Below the pieces are notes generated by a model, which saw only the letters and a program-made list of their open reading frames with translations, was not told the DNA's origin and ran no database searches. 64,000 nt of DNA from a virus, in IMG/VR virus record IMGVR_UViG_3300044966_000489; one strand, 5' to 3'. The position numbers were made by a program, and so were the translations under genes. The number at the start of each line of letters is the position of its first letter. Positions within the stretch are counted from its first letter, which is position 1. Positions 20,381 to 53,888 of the stretch are shown in pieces.

Positions 20381-20983
20381 TTAGTAAAGAAACCACTGCC
20401 AGTCTCTGTGCTTTTTTTCTATATTAATAATAAATGGGTGAGAATTGGGTTTCTTGGGCTTTTTAATTAAAGGAATCCCAAATTCTTCAAGAGTTTTATT
20501 AGATTTTAAACTATTAATTCTTTTATCGCAAGCTACCATGTTTTCCCAAGTGTTCTTGCCGTTTCTTGAGACGGGAATCAGGTGGTCTATATTTGCTTCT
20601 TCCTTTGACAATCTTCGGCCTGTATACTGGCAGGTCCAGTTGTCTCTTTCAAGGATTGCTTTTTTAGTTAATTTAGTGTGGTAGATCGGAACTTTTGAAA
20701 AGTTCTTGCTGATGACGACCGTCGGAATTCGAAAGGTCTGATAAGGAGAGGAGATCGAATAATCGAAATGGCGCACTGGCAAAGTCTCCCAAATTTCCCA
20801 TGAAACTGGTCTATAGTCTGGGTTTTCAAAATCATATTCTCCATCTACTAAAGGATAATTAATATCCATAGCAAGATATGAACCTTTGAATACCTTACTG
20901 ATGGCAGTTTCAATGCCTTCAGTCCCGATACCCATCCAATTTTTATTTAATTTTAGACAGGTTAGATTATCAAGGTTGAACAT
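20381..20983 (-). CDS. HNH endonuclease (McrA-like)
   Basis: ILERDNWTCQYTG, NIDHLIPVSRNG, WENMVAC..IN..KSN. Confidence 0.9.
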   Translation of the reverse strand: MFNLDNLTCLKLNKNWMGIGTEGIETAISKVFKGSYLAMDINYPLVDGEYDFENPDYRPVSWEIWETLPVRHFDYSISSPYQTFRIPTVVISKNFSKVPIYHTKLTKKAILERDNWTCQYTGRRLSKEEANIDHLIPVSRNGKNTWENMVACDKRINSLKSNKTLEEFGIPLIKKPKKPNSHPFIINIEKKHRDWQWFLY

Positions 20984-21398
20984 ATTCTTCAAATTTATTG
21001 TCTCCGTTTGAATCAACGGAGTAAAATATTTTCTTTGGATTCAGAAATTTAATCAAATTCTGGCAGGAAGTGCAAGGTTTAGAGTTTCTAATCTTGCCGT
21101 TTCTGTCAATCCTAGTGGTGACAAGATTGGTTTTAGTAAAGTCAATATTAGTAAGATTTTTAAACTTGATAAAAGCGTTAAGCTCAGAGCAGGTATATTT
21201 ATCCTTTACTAATTCACCATTTAAACCAGTCTTAGGATTCTTTTGATTGGTTGGATTGCTCTTATTAGAATTTTTGCCAATAGTAATTATTCTGTTCTTG
21301 TGAAAGATAAATGAAAAGTGTTGGCACCTCAGTTTAGAGTCTGTCTCTCGCAAAGCTTTTGTAAGACTTACGCACTTTTCTAAATGAGATTTTTTCAC
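20970..21398 (-). CDS. zinc-dependent cytidine/deoxycytidylate deaminase-fold protein
   Basis: HFSFIF..NRII..G.N, CSE (instead of HAE), SKPCTSC. Confidence 0.7.
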   Translation of the reverse strand: MKKSHLEKCVSLTKALRETDSKLRCQHFSFIFHKNRIITIGKNSNKSNPTNQKNPKTGLNGELVKDKYTCSELNAFIKFKNLTNIDFTKTNLVTTRIDRNGKIRNSKPCTSCQNLIKFLNPKKIFYSVDSNGDNKFEEYVQP

Positions 21399-21738: not shown

Positions 21739-21768
21739 ATATTATCGGGCAAACTTGATGGTTGTCAA
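21739..21768 (-). promoter_or_regulatory. sigma70 promoter
   Basis: TTGACA-18nt-TAATAT. Confidence 0.5.
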
Positions 21769-22091
21769 CTTTTTCTTGGTTTTCTTTTTTTAATTTTTCC
21801 TTTTGAAGATCCGTTAATTTTTTCTAAGAATTTTTCGCTTATTAATTCTACAAGTTTCAAGCCTAAAAATCCAGCAATAAAAGCAACGCCATTTTGGTGC
21901 TTGACATTAGCGATATTTAGAGCATCAACCAGAACAGGAGTCAAGAAGTTTGCGGCAGACATTCCGCCAACAAGAGACAAGACTACAGATTTTACATCGG
22001 TTTTTTCATTTTTTGTAGCCATCAAAATGGCCCCAAATAAACCGCTAATCAAGAACCCTAATTGAATTCCCATCTTTTGCAACTGTTCCAT
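21765..22091 (-). CDS. putative holin (3 TM, basic C-terminal tail)
   Basis: Three hydrophobic segments, AFIAGFLG motif, KKRKPRKS tail. Confidence 0.65.
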   Translation of the reverse strand: MEQLQKMGIQLGFLISGLFGAILMATKNEKTDVKSVVLSLVGGMSAANFLTPVLVDALNIANVKHQNGVAFIAGFLGLKLVELISEKFLEKINGSSKGKIKKRKPRKS

Positions 22092-22092
22092 A

Positions 22093-22713
22093 TTACTTTT
22101 TCTTTTTCTTTATAGGCTTCTTTTGGGCGACGGGATGGTTATCATGTTTAATTAAATACACTAACGCAATAATAATTAAACACAAACTATATAAGTATAT
22201 ATTTAATAATTGCGTTTCTTCTTTGATTTTCGTTTCTGAGCTATCATTAATCAAGGTTCTAAATTTATCTTTGCTCTCGTATATTCTCTTTTTGTAATCT
22301 AAATATTTTTCACTAAAGAACGCTTTGCTGTCCATTTTTTCAAAAGCTGGTCCTTCTACATCTTTTGCTAATTCATTGCTTATATCCAAGCAAACTCGAA
22401 ACTCTTTTAATTCCTCTTGAGTAAGTATTTTGGAAATAAAAACTTCGTTATTAAAATACTTTTCTCTTTCTTTCAGATGACCGTTGAATTGCTCTATAAA
22501 CTTTTTATCACCAGTAGCCGTATATGCAGCACCAAGATATGTTAAATGGTCTGTAGACTTTCTAAGGTAGAGAGTTATATCTCTACCAAATCTAAATCTA
22601 ACAAATGCTTTTTCTATATCTTTTAAACAAGATATTGAAAGAATAACTAAAAGCGCAGTTGGTAAAAGGATAACTAATAAATATTTCTTTATATTTGAGA
22701 ATATTTCGTTCAT
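22093..22713 (-). CDS. two-TM membrane protein with chemoreceptor/histidine-kinase-type periplasmic sensor domain and no cytoplasmic output domain
   Basis: TM-LRKSTDHLT...YTATGDKKF...LTQEEL...SNELA..E..AF...FSEKY...K..I-TM, then a short poly-Lys tail. Confidence 0.6.
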   Translation of the reverse strand: MNEIFSNIKKYLLVILLPTALLVILSISCLKDIEKAFVRFRFGRDITLYLRKSTDHLTYLGAAYTATGDKKFIEQFNGHLKEREKYFNNEVFISKILTQEELKEFRVCLDISNELAKDVEGPAFEKMDSKAFFSEKYLDYKKRIYESKDKFRTLINDSSETKIKEETQLLNIYLYSLCLIIIALVYLIKHDNHPVAQKKPIKKKKK

Positions 22714-22721
22714 TTTAGTTT

Positions 22722-23678
22722 TTATTTAATCCACTTTTGTTCTTTTAGAATTTCGTCTATTAGGTCTTTTTCATCTCTATCCATTTCTTTATCGAATCTT
22801 TTTAGTGCTTCTGTTATTGGATAAACTCTATCTGGAAATTCTTTTTGTCTTTCTTTAAGATCTTGTATAACGTCAACAATCTTAACAAGTGGGGCTTTAA
22901 ATTCTTCTACTTTGTCTTTTGAAGTGAAATTAGACATTTCAAAAGCTTTAGGAGTTAAAGCTTTTAATACAGAAATCAATGCTGACCCTAACATATTAAA
23001 GATTGAAAATGCAGCAGCGGCAGCAGGGTGAACTGTTGCTAGAAGACGAAGAATAACAAATAGGACTACAAATATAATAATTGTAGTTAATGTGCTAATA
23101 ACAAACTTCTTTAATCCCCATAATACAGCATTAAGACCAAACATTCCGCTCATTGAGTCTAACACTGCTTTATTTTGATCTGCTTCTTTGGCGACTTCTT
23201 TGGCTTTGTCAGTTAGTTGCCAAAGTTGATCATCGTATTTTTGATTTAGCTCTGACTTTTCTTTCTGTAATTTATTAATTATGTCGTCGCGTTGAGCTAA
23301 AAGTTCTTCTCCTTTTTTGCGCTCTTCAACTAAAGCAGAGTTTAAAAGATCAACTGTAGCCTTTATTCTCTTCATTTCATCAATATGAGGAGAACCAACA
23401 ATAGAGATTACTCTTTCATTTAACTTTCTGGCAGTATCTACTTGAACGGGGGCATTAGTTATCTGATTGAGAGAATGCTGAATTCCGACAGAAAGACCAG
23501 AGGTTTGAATCCTCTTGCCTTTGTCGTTTTTCTCCATTTCAACTAGAGTATTATCTACTTTCTTCTCTTCTTTAGCAATGACCTTTTGATTGTCGTCTAT
23601 CTGTTTAGAAGGTTTAATTGTAGAGAAGCATCCAGTTAGTATTAACAGGACGAAAGGCAGGAACAGAAGTTTCTTCAT
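22722..23678 (-). CDS. lipoprotein with coiled coil and C-proximal TM helices (spanin-like)
   Basis: Lipobox LTGC, long coiled coil, hydrophobic segment FVISTLTTIIIFVVLFVILRLL. Confidence 0.6.
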   Translation of the reverse strand: MKKLLFLPFVLLILTGCFSTIKPSKQIDDNQKVIAKEEKKVDNTLVEMEKNDKGKRIQTSGLSVGIQHSLNQITNAPVQVDTARKLNERVISIVGSPHIDEMKRIKATVDLLNSALVEERKKGEELLAQRDDIINKLQKEKSELNQKYDDQLWQLTDKAKEVAKEADQNKAVLDSMSGMFGLNAVLWGLKKFVISTLTTIIIFVVLFVILRLLATVHPAAAAAFSIFNMLGSALISVLKALTPKAFEMSNFTSKDKVEEFKAPLVKIVDVIQDLKERQKEFPDRVYPITEALKRFDKEMDRDEKDLIDEILKEQKWIK

Positions 23679-23686
23679 GCCTATTA

Positions 23687-23692
23687 TTACAC
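23687..23692 (-). promoter_or_regulatory. phage-specific GTGTAA promoter motif
   Basis: GTGTAATAATA 8 nt upstream of the ATG. Confidence 0.6.
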
Positions 23693-24997: not shown

Positions 24998-25007
24998 ATA
25001 CACTTTA

Positions 25008-25013
25008 TTACAC
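25008..25013 (-). promoter_or_regulatory. phage-specific GTGTAA promoter motif
   Basis: GTGTAATAAA immediately after a terminator, 10 nt before the ATG. Confidence 0.6.
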
Positions 25014-25298: not shown

Positions 25299-25308
25299 AG
25301 ACTATTTA

Positions 25309-25815
25309 TTACACCAATTTAAAAACATCACTAGGCTTACCTCTGATATTTTTTCTTTCCCCGACTTTCTTAATAGTGTTTCCAAGAACCATTTCTTTAA
25401 TTTTAAGATATAGTTTTGGGTATGGAATCTTATTTGTAACGAGGAGATCTTTCATGGTAAACTCTCCTTTTGGAATCTTTAATTCAGCTTGAGTGTTTTC
25501 AACTTGTTCTTGCTTATTAGCCAAGATTTCTTTATGCCTATTGATGGCAATATCAAGAGAAAGGCAATCAAAGCCAATCCTGCCGAAAGCATTATCATTA
25601 GGATAAACCCACTTGGCTTCAATAGTTTTGCCATGAAACACGAATTGATCTTGTCTCTTAGGCTTAACCAATTCATATTTTTTAGTTTTAGTAGACTCTT
25701 TTGTCTTTTCGTAGATCATCCAGCCGCCTTCAAGCTTTTTTATGAACTTGAACTGGTAACCTTTGTGAGTGAATTCTTTGGGAACCAAGAGATAACCGTC
25801 CTTATCTTTTTCCAT
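25309..25815 (-). CDS. hypothetical protein with probable C-terminal winged helix
   Basis: C-terminal FTMKDL...IKKVGE..RGKP..VF; its Val-stop forms a GTGTAA motif. Confidence 0.65.
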   Translation of the reverse strand: MEKDKDGYLLVPKEFTHKGYQFKFIKKLEGGWMIYEKTKESTKTKKYELVKPKRQDQFVFHGKTIEAKWVYPNDNAFGRIGFDCLSLDIAINRHKEILANKQEQVENTQAELKIPKGEFTMKDLLVTNKIPYPKLYLKIKEMVLGNTIKKVGERKNIRGKPSDVFKLV

Positions 25816-31231: not shown

Positions 31232-31243
31232 TTACATCTTATA

Positions 31244-31249
31244 TTACAC
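31244..31249 (-). promoter_or_regulatory. phage-specific GTGTAA promoter motif
   Basis: GTGTAATATA in the intergenic gap. Confidence 0.55.
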
Positions 31250-46306: not shown

Positions 46307-47124
46307 ATAGAATAATCTTAGGAAACCAAGGTCAATTTGGAGACCTATGTATAAATACAGTTGCCTTTAAAAAAATAAAGGAATTGAACCCAGAATCTTT
46401 TCTGGTAATGTCTATTAATAAAAAATATACTGAAATCTCTCCTATATTTTTAAACAATCCATTTATCGATTCTTTAATCGTTTGGGATCAATACGATGGC
46501 TGGCCTAACGAAAAAGATTTGCTGTTAATAAAAAATTATAAAAACACCACTTTATACCATCCCATGCCGCCGCATACTAATAACGCATGGTTTTTAAACT
46601 CTCATCAAACAGAAGAAGCGGCGTTCATGAACGGATACAGCGGGAATAGATTTCCAAATGGCGAGCAATGCATCTTAACAAAATGGTTCGATACTGATAA
46701 AAATTTAAACTTTGTGGCCTTTTCTCCTTTTGCGGGTTTCTATAGTCCCAATAATAAGAAAATGCTATCTATTGAAAACGCTCAAAAAATTGTTAATTTA
46801 ATTAAATCTAAAGGCTATAATGTAATACAATTAGGTGGGTCAAATGAACCTGTTCTTGATGGGGTAATAAAAGAAAACGGTTCCTTTTTCTCTTCGATTA
46901 AAACTGCTCTTTCTTGTAAATTTTATATTGGCACAGACACAGGGATGACTTGGATTTTGTCCGCTTACTCTCATCCAAGTCTTGGTCTTTATTCGTATGA
47001 ATATTACACAAAAGATTATGTAAAAAATATTCAACCAATAAATCCAAATGCAATTTATTTAAGTGAACCCAATGTAAATCAAATAACAATAGAACAAATA
47101 GAAGAATCAATAAAGAATTTTTAA
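46303..47124 (+). CDS. GT9 (heptosyltransferase-like) glycosyltransferase
   Basis: GQFGDL, NNPFID, VIQLG, YIGTDTG. Confidence 0.8.
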   Translation: MNRIILGNQGQFGDLCINTVAFKKIKELNPESFLVMSINKKYTEISPIFLNNPFIDSLIVWDQYDGWPNEKDLLLIKNYKNTTLYHPMPPHTNNAWFLNSHQTEEAAFMNGYSGNRFPNGEQCILTKWFDTDKNLNFVAFSPFAGFYSPNNKKMLSIENAQKIVNLIKSKGYNVIQLGGSNEPVLDGVIKENGSFFSSIKTALSCKFYIGTDTGMTWILSAYSHPSLGLYSYEYYTKDYVKNIQPINPNAIYLSEPNVNQITIEQIEESIKNF

Positions 47125-53464: not shown

Positions 53465-53880
53465 AGCTTTATTCTGTAACCGGCAGAATAATTAACAAAA
53501 ATGTTTCTCAATTTTTAATAGATTGGGAAAAAGAGTCTCGTTCTAAAATTCAATTTCAAGTAAAGCAATTCTTGAAACCATTTTGGAAGACTCACGTTTG
53601 TTATGAAGAGTTTCCGGTTTTCGGAAGCAGAATGAAGGTTGATTTCATTAACATCTCTCGCAAAATAGCAATAGAAGTAAATGGCGACCAGCATTCTTCT
53701 TTTAATAAATTCTTTCATAACAACTCAAGATTAAATTACCTTAATTCTATTAAGAGAGACTACAAAAAGTCTGTGTGGCTAGAGAAGAATGGCTTTCAAC
53801 TAATAGAATTAGAGACCAGCGACTTAAATAAATTAAGCTATGATTACATAAATCATACATTTAATATATCGTTGGTGTAA
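53461..53880 (+). CDS. DUF559/Vsr-like endonuclease
   Basis: EEFP, VDF, IAIEVNGDQH, RDYKK..W...NG. Confidence 0.8.
   Translation: MKLYSVTGRIINKNVSQFLIDWEKESRSKIQFQVKQFLKPFWKTHVCYEEFPVFGSRMKVDFINISRKIAIEVNGDQHSSFNKFFHNNSRLNYLNSIKRDYKKSVWLEKNGFQLIELETSDLNKLSYDYINHTFNISLV
53875..53880 (+). promoter_or_regulatory. phage-specific GTGTAA promoter motif
   Basis: GTGTAATATA overlapping the upstream stop codon, 8 nt before the next start. Confidence 0.5.
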
Positions 53881-53888
53881 TATAATCT

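What the first reader, a model, noticed from the sequence alone, without database searches (positions are those of the whole stretch)
21765..23692. Lysis-like cassette containing an orphan chemoreceptor-type sensor: possible signal-controlled lysis
Seen: three tightly packed genes follow a GTGTAA motif. They encode a lipoprotein with coiled coil and TM (spanin-like), a 2-TM protein and a 3-TM holin-like protein. The periplasmic part of the middle protein (LRKSTDHLT..AAYTATGDKKF...LTQEEL...SNELAK..E..AF...FSEKYLDYKKRI) follows the pattern I recall from helical-bundle sensor domains of MCPs/histidine kinases (LRQSSDDLT..AR.Y..TGD..Y...FT.EE...SD.L...E..A). It stops ~15 aa after TM2, with no HAMP, kinase or signalling domain. 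Inference: a captured sensor acting as a ligand-responsive antiholin (conceptually like T4 RI lysis inhibition; rIIA/rIIB are also present) or as a dominant-negative decoy of host receptors.
Basis: partly seen in the sequence, partly recalled or inferred. Interest (0 to 1): 0.75.

Follow-up and report, generated by a model that had tools for sequence, protein, structure and literature searches.

The report
Sensor-shaped partner of a phage holin
An uncultured freshwater phage encodes, directly beside its predicted holin (the protein that times cell bursting), a membrane protein shaped like the outward-facing sensor of bacterial chemoreceptors but with no signalling part, so this phage group may tie lysis to something sensed in the cell envelope; this has not been tested.

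Summary
Three tightly packed minus-strand genes encode a lipoprotein with a coiled coil and a membrane hairpin (lipo318), a TM-helical domain-TM protein ending 16 residues after TM2 (mid206), and a 3-TM protein with a basic tail (hol108).

- **Holin:** hol108 matches PHROG 2359 'holin'. In other phages its relatives lie beside endolysins of five unrelated classes.
- **Fold of mid206:** the model is confident (pLDDT 85.5) and shows TM1, an antiparallel four-helix bundle and TM2. The best solved match is a CHASE3 sensor domain (Z 14.2). Further matches are chemoreceptor and kinase sensors, including NarQ. Predicted sensor modules of signalling proteins match at TM 0.80-0.82 over about 195 residues.
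- **No sequence kinship:** Pfam finds nothing, a profile-profile comparison with real CHASE3 domains gives 5%, and no bacterial or longer relative was found. 'Captured sensor' is therefore not shown.
- **Linkage:** mid206 and hol108 are neighbours in 41 of 42 distinct pairs, in either order, mostly with a 4-base overlap.
- **Best reading (about 0.45):** an output-less, sensor-like regulator of the holin.
- **Not tested or not found:** ligand sensing, antiholin activity and binding. No endolysin was found in this clade.

First readers of this scan flagged the same family, and similar output-less sensors in lysis cassettes, on other DNA. None of those notes has been checked.

The parts
23685..23692 (-). 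GTGTAATA motif, 6 bases before the lipoprotein start codon. The same 8-mer precedes the two upstream virion genes.
   Evidence: 6 matches against 1.46 expected. Three of them lie directly before consecutive minus-strand gene starts (23678, 25003, 25298). Its function as a promoter or translation signal is not shown.
22722..23678 (-). lipo318: lipoprotein with a long helical periplasmic region, a membrane hairpin (about residues 191-241) and a 77-residue C-terminal part. It is a candidate envelope-spanning (spanin-like) component.
   Evidence: invariant G16-C17 lipobox; AF2 model all-helical but pLDDT 55.6; hydropathy. No Pfam, PHROG or NCBIfam family. It lies next to the pair only in part of the window's clade and in the L005 lineage.
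22093..22713 (-). mid206: the sensor-shaped holin partner (whole gene).
22627..22683 (-). mid206 TM1 (residues about 11-29): a signal anchor or possibly a cleavable signal peptide.
   Evidence: hydropathy peak 2.77; conserved small-x-small at residues 26-28. (the helix runs continuously into alpha-1).
22210..22626 (-). mid206 periplasmic four-helix bundle (residues 30-168). The invariant residues cluster in the membrane-distal halves of all four helices.
   Evidence: helices 2-67, 70-91, 99-126 and 135-190; pLDDT about 90. (3va9 CHASE3: Z 14.2, rmsd 2.3, 121 of 127 residues). (invariant L50 R51 S53 T54 D55 L57 T58 A63 Y64 T65 T67 F72 F76 N77 H79 R83 S112 L115 A116 E120 A123 F124 A131 Y137 Y140 K141 I144).
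22144..22209 (-). mid206 TM2 (residues about 169-190), continuous with helix alpha-4.
22096..22143 (-). mid206 cytoplasmic Lys/Pro-rich tail (16 residues), of the same kind as the holin's tail.
   Evidence: Tail length varies from 16 to about 45 residues among relatives, and nothing follows the tail.
21765..22091 (-). hol108: predicted class-I-like holin (3 hydrophobic segments, basic C-terminal tail).
   Evidence: phrog_2359 'holin', E 8e-13; relatives lie next to endolysins of five classes; conserved glycine-rich TM motifs.

Best explanation
The conserved unit is a two-gene module: a small 3-TM holin (hol108) and an inner-membrane partner (mid206).

mid206 places a four-helix bundle in the periplasm between two transmembrane helices. 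It ends in a short Lys-rich cytoplasmic tail. This is the input half of a chemoreceptor or histidine kinase, closest in shape to CHASE3, without any output half.

The most likely role is regulation of holin triggering, either as an antiholin or as a gate. In that model the bundle's state is passed down the continuous alpha4-TM2 helix. The state could be set by ligand binding, by a partner protein or by the condition of the envelope. TM2 would then contact the holin within the membrane, so the holin takes the place of the missing signalling domain.

In this phage a lipoprotein with a coiled coil and a membrane hairpin (lipo318) has joined the module, possibly as a spanin-like envelope component. 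The three genes share an upstream motif with the neighbouring virion genes, which would fit late expression.

**Shown:** the genes, the predicted fold, the linkage, and the holin's association with endolysins.
**Inferred:** physical contact, the direction of regulation, and any sensing.
For: **Fold**
- The AF2 model has pLDDT 85.5 and shows TM1-alpha1, alpha2, alpha3 and alpha4-TM2.
- Independent ESM Atlas models of three virus-only clusters match it at TM 0.89-0.91.
- TM-sensor-TM modules of HAMP-GGDEF, HAMP and MCP proteins match at TM 0.79-0.82 over 191-201 residues.
- The seven best solved structures are all bacterial sensor domains: CHASE3 3va9 (Z 14.2), Vc1313, McpN, MCP2201, Adeh_2942, PcaY and LytS-N. 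NarQ, Tsr, Tar and QseE follow lower in the list. Entry 3va9 is CHASE3 according to PMC6381276.
- Foldseek's best hits are the NarQ sensor-plus-TM fragments.
- 28 of 30 named language-model hits are CHASE3 clusters.

**Linkage**
- Of 42 distinct mid-hol pairs, 29 run hol then mid, mostly with a 4-base overlap.
- 12 run mid then hol, with gaps of 0-3 bases. One is rearranged but stays within 1 kb.
- There is one copy per complete genome.

**Lysis context**
- hol108 matches phrog_2359 'holin'.
- hol-family genes lie within about 1-2 kb of endolysins of five classes: GH19 plus PG_binding_1, Peptidase_M15_3, Peptidase_M15_4/VanY, Phage_lysozyme and Amidase_2. A Phage_holin_10 gene and lipoproteins with a C-terminal TM also lie nearby.
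- In clades without mid206, the slot after the holin holds a different small membrane protein of about 95 residues.

**Conservation:** invariant polar and aromatic residues cluster in the membrane-distal half of the bundle. Helix alpha-1 residues 50-67 are conserved on all faces.

**Precedents**
- Antiholins are usually encoded next to holins and can act within the membrane (PMC7182436).
- GlnX is an output-less 4HB/CHASE3-like membrane protein that signals through its TM helices to a separate partner (PMC9769921).
Against: - There is no sequence homology to any sensor family.
- Helical bundles often reach Z of about 14 by arrangement alone, as the tool's own note warns. The fold match therefore shows architecture, not descent or function.
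- Nothing shows that mid206 binds a ligand or the holin, or in which direction it would act.
- hol108 has almost no periplasmic part, so a T4 RI-type periplasmic contact is unlikely.
- No endolysin was found near the cassette, or anywhere in two complete genomes of close relatives, with eight Pfam families.
- Cassettes of distant relatives hold up to four small membrane proteins, so it is not settled which one is 'the' holin.
- TM1 may be a cleaved signal peptide, which would change the topology.
Confidence: 0.45

Rival explanations
1. mid206 is a constitutive structural co-factor of the holin, a second holin subunit or scaffold needed for hole formation or for holin stability. It senses nothing, and its four-helix bundle is only a periplasmic spacer or an oligomerisation domain.
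For: It shows the same strict adjacency and overlap with the holin. Its basic C-terminal tail is of the holin type. In other clades the same slot holds a small 3-TM protein with no periplasmic domain.
Against: A mere spacer would not be expected to keep about 27 invariant residues across clades that share only about 40% identity. Many of these residues are polar, and they sit in the membrane-distal half of the bundle. The whole TM-bundle-TM arrangement matches signalling receptors at TM 0.8.
Confidence: 0.22
2. mid206 belongs to the last step of lysis, envelope disruption. It would act as an inner-membrane, spanin-like component together with the lipoprotein lipo318 or with the small secreted protein found in distant clades.
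For: In the window it lies between a lipoprotein and the holin. It is helical and periplasmic, like i-spanins. In distant clades a 101-residue signal-peptide protein always lies nearby.
Against: - It has two TMs and a compact antiparallel bundle, whereas i-spanins have one TM and an extended coiled coil.
- lipo318 is absent from most clades that keep mid206.
- The gene it overlaps is the holin, not a lipoprotein.
- Some relatives without mid206 carry their own lipoprotein with a C-terminal TM, which looks like a unimolecular spanin.
Confidence: 0.1
3. mid206 is not a lysis protein. It could be a superinfection-exclusion protein or an envelope modifier. It could also be a dominant-negative decoy that pairs with a host four-helix-bundle receptor. 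In any of these cases it merely travels with the holin gene.
For: Phage membrane proteins in accessory slots often act in exclusion. The region between the lipoprotein and mid206 takes variable inserts in relatives. The output-less sensor shape would suit a decoy.
Against: - Translational coupling and adjacency are kept through a gene-order swap and across five clades.
- It has no detectable similarity to any bacterial protein that it could heterodimerise with.
- It is single-copy and conserved, so it does not look like optional cargo.
Confidence: 0.1

Closest known systems
Phage T4 lysis inhibition: holin T with antiholin RI (PMC8385771, PMC11413866)
   Same: A membrane-tethered protein with a periplasmic domain controls a holin. 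The idea is that a periplasmic cue delays lysis. rIIA and rIIB are present in the same genome.
   Different: - There is no sequence or fold relationship, since RI is not a four-helix bundle between two TMs.
- T carries the large periplasmic domain that RI binds, whereas hol108 has almost none, so any contact would have to occur within the membrane.
- T4 rI and t are not adjacent (from my own knowledge). Here the two genes overlap.
Antiholins encoded beside or within holin genes: lambda S107/S105, P1 LydB/LydA, ICP1 ArrA/TeaA (PMC7182436)
   Same: The gene lies next to or overlaps the holin gene, and the protein is membrane-embedded. Action on the holin within the membrane is plausible.
   Different: Those antiholins have no receptor-like periplasmic domain. 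No homology was found to any of them.
CHASE3 / 4HB_MCP-type sensor domains (PDB 3VA9 HK9; NarQ 5IJI; Tar 1LIH; McpN 6GCV)
   Same: It shares the TM1, antiparallel four-helix bundle, TM2 topology, with alpha-4 running into TM2. These give the best structural and language-model matches. A Y..TG...[FY][IL]E.[FY] motif at the alpha1-alpha2 turn resembles the CHASE3 motif.
   Different: It has no HAMP or other output domain. Sequence similarity is not significant. The family is found only in viruses.
GlnX of Corynebacterium glutamicum (PMC9769921)
   Same: GlnX is a membrane protein with periplasmic four-helix bundles, one of them borderline CHASE3, and no enzymatic output of its own. It passes the signal through its TM helices to a separate partner protein.
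   Different: GlnX is cellular, has four TMs and two bundles, and its partner is a Ser/Thr kinase. It has nothing to do with lysis.
Unimolecular spanin (T1 gp11 type), compared with lipo318
   Same: It has an N-terminal lipobox plus a membrane anchor in one chain, and it lies in a lysis-type cassette.
   Different: - lipo318 is more than twice as long and is helical.
- Its anchor is an internal hairpin followed by 77 residues, not a C-terminal TM.
- No family match was found.

Membership tests
Four-helix-bundle periplasmic sensor modules (Pfam 4HB_MCP clan: CHASE3, 4HB_MCP_1, TarH, HBM) | TM1, antiparallel four-helix bundle, TM2 topology, with the last helix continuous with TM2 | tested here: met
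   AF2 model with pLDDT 85.5. TM 0.79-0.82 to sensor modules of HAMP/GGDEF/MCP proteins. Z 14.2 to 10.5 to CHASE3, MCP and HK sensor domains. This rests on a predicted structure only.
Four-helix-bundle periplasmic sensor modules (Pfam 4HB_MCP clan: CHASE3, 4HB_MCP_1, TarH, HBM) | Sequence-profile match to a family of the clan | tested here: not met
   No clan member was hit in any of 13 family members at E <= 10. hhalign against 15 genuine CHASE3 domains gave probability 5-6%. The profile search against PDB gave only noise.
Four-helix-bundle periplasmic sensor modules (Pfam 4HB_MCP clan: CHASE3, 4HB_MCP_1, TarH, HBM) | A cytoplasmic transmitter (HAMP, kinase, MCP signalling or GGDEF domain) after TM2 | tested here: not met
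   The protein ends 16 residues after TM2. Relatives carry tails of 16 to about 45 Lys/Pro-rich residues. No longer relatives were found (the three hits there match only a chimeric row).
Four-helix-bundle periplasmic sensor modules (Pfam 4HB_MCP clan: CHASE3, 4HB_MCP_1, TarH, HBM) | Binds a ligand or partner at the bundle and works as a homodimer | not testable with these tools
   The only indirect hint is that invariant polar residues cluster in the membrane-distal half of the bundle.
Antiholins | Encoded next to, or overlapping, the holin gene | tested here: met
   41 of 42 distinct pairs are directly adjacent, with 4- or 23-base overlaps or gaps of 0-23 bases.
Antiholins | Homology to a known antiholin (RI, RIII, LydB, ArrA, S107) | tested here: not met
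   No Pfam, PHROG or NCBIfam match. No tblastn match in 50,697 phage records.
Antiholins | Binds the holin and delays its triggering | not testable with these tools
   This needs expression and interaction assays.
Holins (for hol108) | Small protein with at least one TM and a charged C-terminal tail, matching a holin family | tested here: met
   108 residues, three hydrophobic segments and a Lys/Arg tail. It matches phrog_2359 'holin' at E 8e-13. No Pfam holin family matches.
Holins (for hol108) | Encoded beside an endolysin | tested here: inconclusive
   This is met in relatives, with five endolysin classes within about 1-2 kb. It is not met in the window's own clade, where no endolysin was found near the cassette or in two complete genomes.
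Holins (for hol108) | Forms lethal membrane holes that release endolysin | not testable with these tools
   This needs expression in a host.
Spanins (for lipo318) | Outer-membrane lipoprotein signal plus an inner-membrane anchor (unimolecular type: C-terminal TM) | tested here: inconclusive
   The lipobox is invariant. The anchor, however, is an internal hairpin followed by 77 residues. The model has low confidence (pLDDT 55.6), and no spanin family is matched.

The most novel reading that the evidence does not exclude
Some phages time lysis with a receptor-like device. An output-less periplasmic four-helix-bundle sensor reads a chemical or envelope cue, and its 'output domain' is a separate holin contacted within the membrane. 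This family would be one example of a wider, undescribed class of sensor-type domains (4HB, Cache-like, PAS) placed in phage lysis cassettes. First readers of this scan flagged such cases in at least four other genomes, and none has been checked.
Probability: 0.25. Interest if true: 0.85.

Novelty: new variant of a known kind. Interest (0 to 1): 0.62.

Why it matters
Mechanisms of lysis inhibition are known from very few phages (T4 and ICP1; N4 also shows it). In none of them is the cue read by a recognisable receptor fold.

If mid206 really gates its holin in response to a periplasmic signal, it would give a simple two-protein model for how phages decide when to burst their host. It would also show how a transmembrane sensor can act on a partner purely within the membrane, and it would be a compact ligand-controlled lysis switch for engineering.

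The family is abundant in freshwater viromes: 659 relatives at 90% clustering, and five clades. It has no annotation at all, so even the modest result, a conserved holin partner, fills a gap.

The work also gives independent genomic support for an unannotated holin family that occurs next to five classes of endolysin.

Tried and rejected
- **Complex prediction, mid206 with hol108.** Run with alignments; the result was no answer (score 0.00 in both runs, and the partner's own fold was uncertain). It counts neither for nor against binding.
- **DNA and protein searches of 50,697 cultured-phage records.** No match for the region, for mid206 or for hol108.
- **Whole-genome access.** No genome is held for this window, and L001 is not in a held record.
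- **Longer, fused relatives.** Three 700-residue hits match only the N-terminal half of P0136. That protein is a chimera from locus L007 and is unrelated to mid206 itself. P0136 was dropped from later alignments.
- **Sequence link to CHASE3.** The Pfam scan of 13 members was negative. hhalign against 15 CHASE3 domains taken from bacterial genomes gave no significant match.
- **Profile search of PDB sequences.** Only noise: RNase P protein and ribosomal protein L22.
- **lipo318.** The model is too poor for a fold search (pLDDT 55.6). The language-model search gave only unnamed viral clusters.
- **Endolysin hunt in complete relatives.** Eight Pfam families and one protein query found nothing. 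GH19 and GH108 rang in no control genome either, so those two answers are uninformative.
- **Extended motif TTGTGTAATAAT with 2 mismatches.** Not enriched. Only the exact 8-mer is.
- **Sigma-70 promoter and terminator scan.** At chance level.
- **Literature.** No paper was found on a four-helix-bundle antiholin or a phage CHASE3 domain.
Full report
**What is there**

The window comes from a large, low-GC (about 35%) uncultured phage. It carries rIIA, rIIB, a family-B DNA polymerase, a ribonucleotide reductase and a clamp loader. One virion protein is 33% identical to proteins of T4-like cyanophages and of phage HMO-2011.

Three minus-strand ORFs fill 21765-23678:

| Gene | Coordinates | Length |
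|---|---|---|
| lipo318 | 23678..22722 | 318 aa |
| mid206 | 22713..22093 | 206 aa |
| hol108 | 22091..21765 | 108 aa |

They are separated by 8 bases and 1 base. GTGTAATA lies 6 bases before the first ATG and also directly before the two upstream virion genes. The 8-mer occurs 6 times against 1.46 expected.

**The 3-TM gene behaves as a holin**

hol108 has three hydrophobic segments and a Lys/Arg tail. It matches phrog_2359 'holin' at E 8e-13, but no Pfam holin family.

I tested the label through genome context. A profile of the family found 1,127 relatives and 80 IMG/VR loci. In these loci the gene lies within about 1-2 kb of endolysins of five unrelated classes:
- GH19 with PG_binding_1 (L026)
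- Peptidase_M15_3 (L169, L184, L192)
- Peptidase_M15_4/VanY (L170, L191)
- Phage_lysozyme (L163)
- Amidase_2 (L181)

A Phage_holin_10 gene (L029) and lipoproteins with a C-terminal TM (L163, L168) lie beside it as well. Repeated association with interchangeable endolysins is the classic signature of a holin, although lethality is untested.

**The middle gene has the shape of a receptor input module**

mid206 has no Pfam, PHROG, NCBIfam or PDB sequence match. Its family is narrow: 659 clusters at 90% identity, but only 18 representatives at 50% among 1.8 billion proteins, none of them a receptor.

- **Model.** AlphaFold2 gives a confident model (pLDDT 85.5). Helix 2-67 is TM1 running into alpha-1. 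Helices 70-91 and 99-126 follow. Helix 135-190 is alpha-4 running into TM2.
- **Foldseek.** Its best solved hits are the NarQ sensor-plus-TM fragments (TM 0.52-0.57).
- **Exhaustive alignment.** The CHASE3 domain 3va9 ranks first (Z 14.2, rmsd 2.3, 121 of 127 residues). Vc1313, McpN, MCP2201, Adeh_2942, PcaY and LytS-N fill the next six places. NarQ, Tsr, Tar and QseE follow lower in the list. Entry 3va9 is CHASE3 according to PMC6381276.
- **ESM Atlas.** Three virus-only clusters match at TM 0.89-0.91. The N-terminal TM-sensor-TM parts of HAMP-GGDEF, HAMP and MCP proteins match at 0.79-0.82 over 191-201 residues.
- **Language-model search.** 28 of 30 named hits are CHASE3 clusters.

The tool warns that helical bundles can reach Z of about 14 by arrangement alone. 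I therefore take this as solid evidence of architecture, not of descent.

**It is not demonstrably a captured sensor**

- No clan member is hit in any of 13 family members, even at E <= 10.
- I fetched 15 genuine CHASE3 domains from bacterial genomes. They show the motif DAETGQRGYLLTG..YLEPY, which the mid206 stretch AYTATGDKKFIEQF does resemble. Profile-profile comparison nevertheless gives only 5-6% probability.
- No relative was found in one genome for each of 185,579 bacterial and archaeal species.
- No longer, fused form exists among the candidates. The three hits are an artefact of a chimeric row.

The family is, as far as can be seen, viral and old.

**Linkage is the strongest functional clue**

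Across loci from metagenomes and IMG/VR, mid206 relatives fall into about five clades that are 39-98% identical. Every one has the holin gene beside it.

Of 42 distinct pairs:
- 12 run mid then hol, with gaps of 0-3 bases. This is the window's clade.
- 29 run hol then mid. Of these, 25 have a 4-base overlap, 3 have a 23-base overlap and 1 has a 23-base gap.
- 1 (L005) is rearranged, with hol then lipo running convergently towards mid.

The pair has thus survived a swap of gene order. There is one copy per complete genome.

The lipoprotein accompanies the pair only in part of the window's clade and in L005. The space between lipo and mid takes variable inserts. In the distant clades the pair sits inside a clear lysis cassette. 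That cassette holds an endolysin or endolysin-domain protein, a 2-TM protein, a 101-residue secreted protein, then hol and mid. Where mid206 is absent, the slot after the holin is filled by an unrelated 3-TM protein of about 95 residues.

**Conservation**

Across all clades about 27 periplasmic residues are invariant, and they lie in the membrane-distal halves of the four helices:

| Helix | Invariant residues |
|---|---|
| alpha-1 | L50 R51 S53 T54 D55 L57 T58 A63 Y64 T65 T67 |
| alpha-2 | F72 F76 N77 H79 R83 |
| alpha-3 | S112 L115 A116 E120 A123 F124 |
| alpha-4 | A131 Y137 Y140 K141 I144 |

Helix alpha-1 is conserved on every face there. In Tar-type receptors this region forms the dimer interface and the ligand site (from my own knowledge). 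By inference, the pattern suggests an interaction surface rather than a spacer.

Both proteins end in similar Lys/Pro-rich tails, which change in step between genomes.

**Most likely mechanism**

mid206 is an output-less, receptor-shaped partner that regulates holin triggering. Because hol108 has almost no periplasmic part, any contact would be within the membrane or through the tails. The state of the bundle would then be relayed through the continuous alpha4-TM2 helix.

Two precedents exist:
- Antiholins are usually encoded next to holins and can act within the membrane (PMC7182436).
- GlnX is a four-helix-bundle, CHASE3-like membrane protein with no output domain of its own. It signals through its TM helices to a separate partner (PMC9769921).

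I give this reading about 0.45. The rivals are a constitutive co-holin (0.22), a spanin-type role (0.10) and an unrelated exclusion or decoy role (0.10).

**Weak points**

- Binding, the direction of regulation and sensing are all untested.
- The complex prediction gave no answer.
- TM1 may be a cleaved signal peptide.
- The lipoprotein model is poor.
- No endolysin was found for the window's own clade, even in two complete genomes of relatives.

**Novelty**

I found no paper describing a four-helix-bundle or CHASE3-like holin partner. No annotated viral protein has this fold apart from an uncharacterised family member.

First readers of this scan noted the same family in another genome. They also noted other output-less sensor-like genes (Cache-like, PAS, helical) in lysis cassettes of at least four further genomes. 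These are unchecked leads, but they hint at a wider pattern.

I class the finding as a new variant of a known kind, namely holin regulators.

Noticed in passing
L001:4997-6001 (also L015:7087-7968 and L016:7068-7991): In some close relatives a gene of about 300 residues is inserted between the lipoprotein and mid206. Its product is an Ala/Gly/Glu/Val-rich repeat protein with an Ala/Glu/Lys-rich helical C-terminus that ends in F(K/R)F. It matches no Pfam or PHROG family.
   Followed up: partly
L021:7628-8008 and L022:7637-8008: Other relatives carry, in the same slot, a protein of about 125 residues with one TM and a beta-rich C-terminal part. The space between the lipoprotein and mid206 seems to be a hot spot for envelope-related cargo.
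   Followed up: no
L007:64-684 (protein P0136): This is a chimeric relative. Its C-terminal half (alpha-3, alpha-4, TM2 and tail) is mid206-like. Its N-terminal half matches residues about 371-486 of unrelated 700-residue phage proteins (P0139-P0141).
   Followed up: partly
Relatives G006 (IMGVR_UViG_3300042516_005475, 230 kb) and G007 (IMGVR_UViG_3300008259_000013, 174 kb): Eight common endolysin Pfam families found no endolysin in two relatives that CheckV rates as complete. This clade's endolysin is unknown and may be of an unrecognised type.
   Followed up: partly
window 25006-25013, 25307-25314, 31242-31249 (all minus strand); also 47002-47009 (minus) and 53875-53882 (plus): GTGTAATA recurs, and three of its copies lie a few bases before consecutive minus-strand gene starts. 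It is a candidate late-gene promoter or translation signal of this phage group.
   Followed up: partly
L163:1103-1393, L171:6275-6562, L184:2089-2382 and others: In clades without mid206, a conserved 3-TM protein of about 95 residues always follows the hol-family gene. It carries the motif ...GSLFN.L...N[IV]GLA..F.WA..FH.K.FVK and matches no Pfam family. It is probably another holin partner.
   Followed up: partly
L163:1592-2047 and L168:4158-4547: These lipoproteins have a C-terminal TM, the architecture of a unimolecular spanin. They lie inside lysis cassettes that contain a hol-family gene.
   Followed up: no
L026:5500-6102 and homologues in L027-L040: This 200-residue protein matches phrog_3000 (unknown function) and the C-terminal part of phrog_33083 'endolysin', but no Pfam family. 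It is a possible undescribed cell-wall hydrolase domain lying next to the cassette.
   Followed up: partly
L005:1-969: A relative carries a GDP-mannose 4,6-dehydratase next to its mid206 gene. Its best bacterial matches (up to 73% identity) are mostly Verrucomicrobiota, which weakly hints at the host range of this phage group.
   Followed up: no
window 20381-21016 and 20970-21398 (minus strand): An HNH endonuclease gene lies just downstream of the cassette. It overlaps by 47 bases the end of a gene with a weak cytidine/dCMP deaminase zinc-binding match (E 2e-4, below the Pfam cut-off).
   Followed up: no
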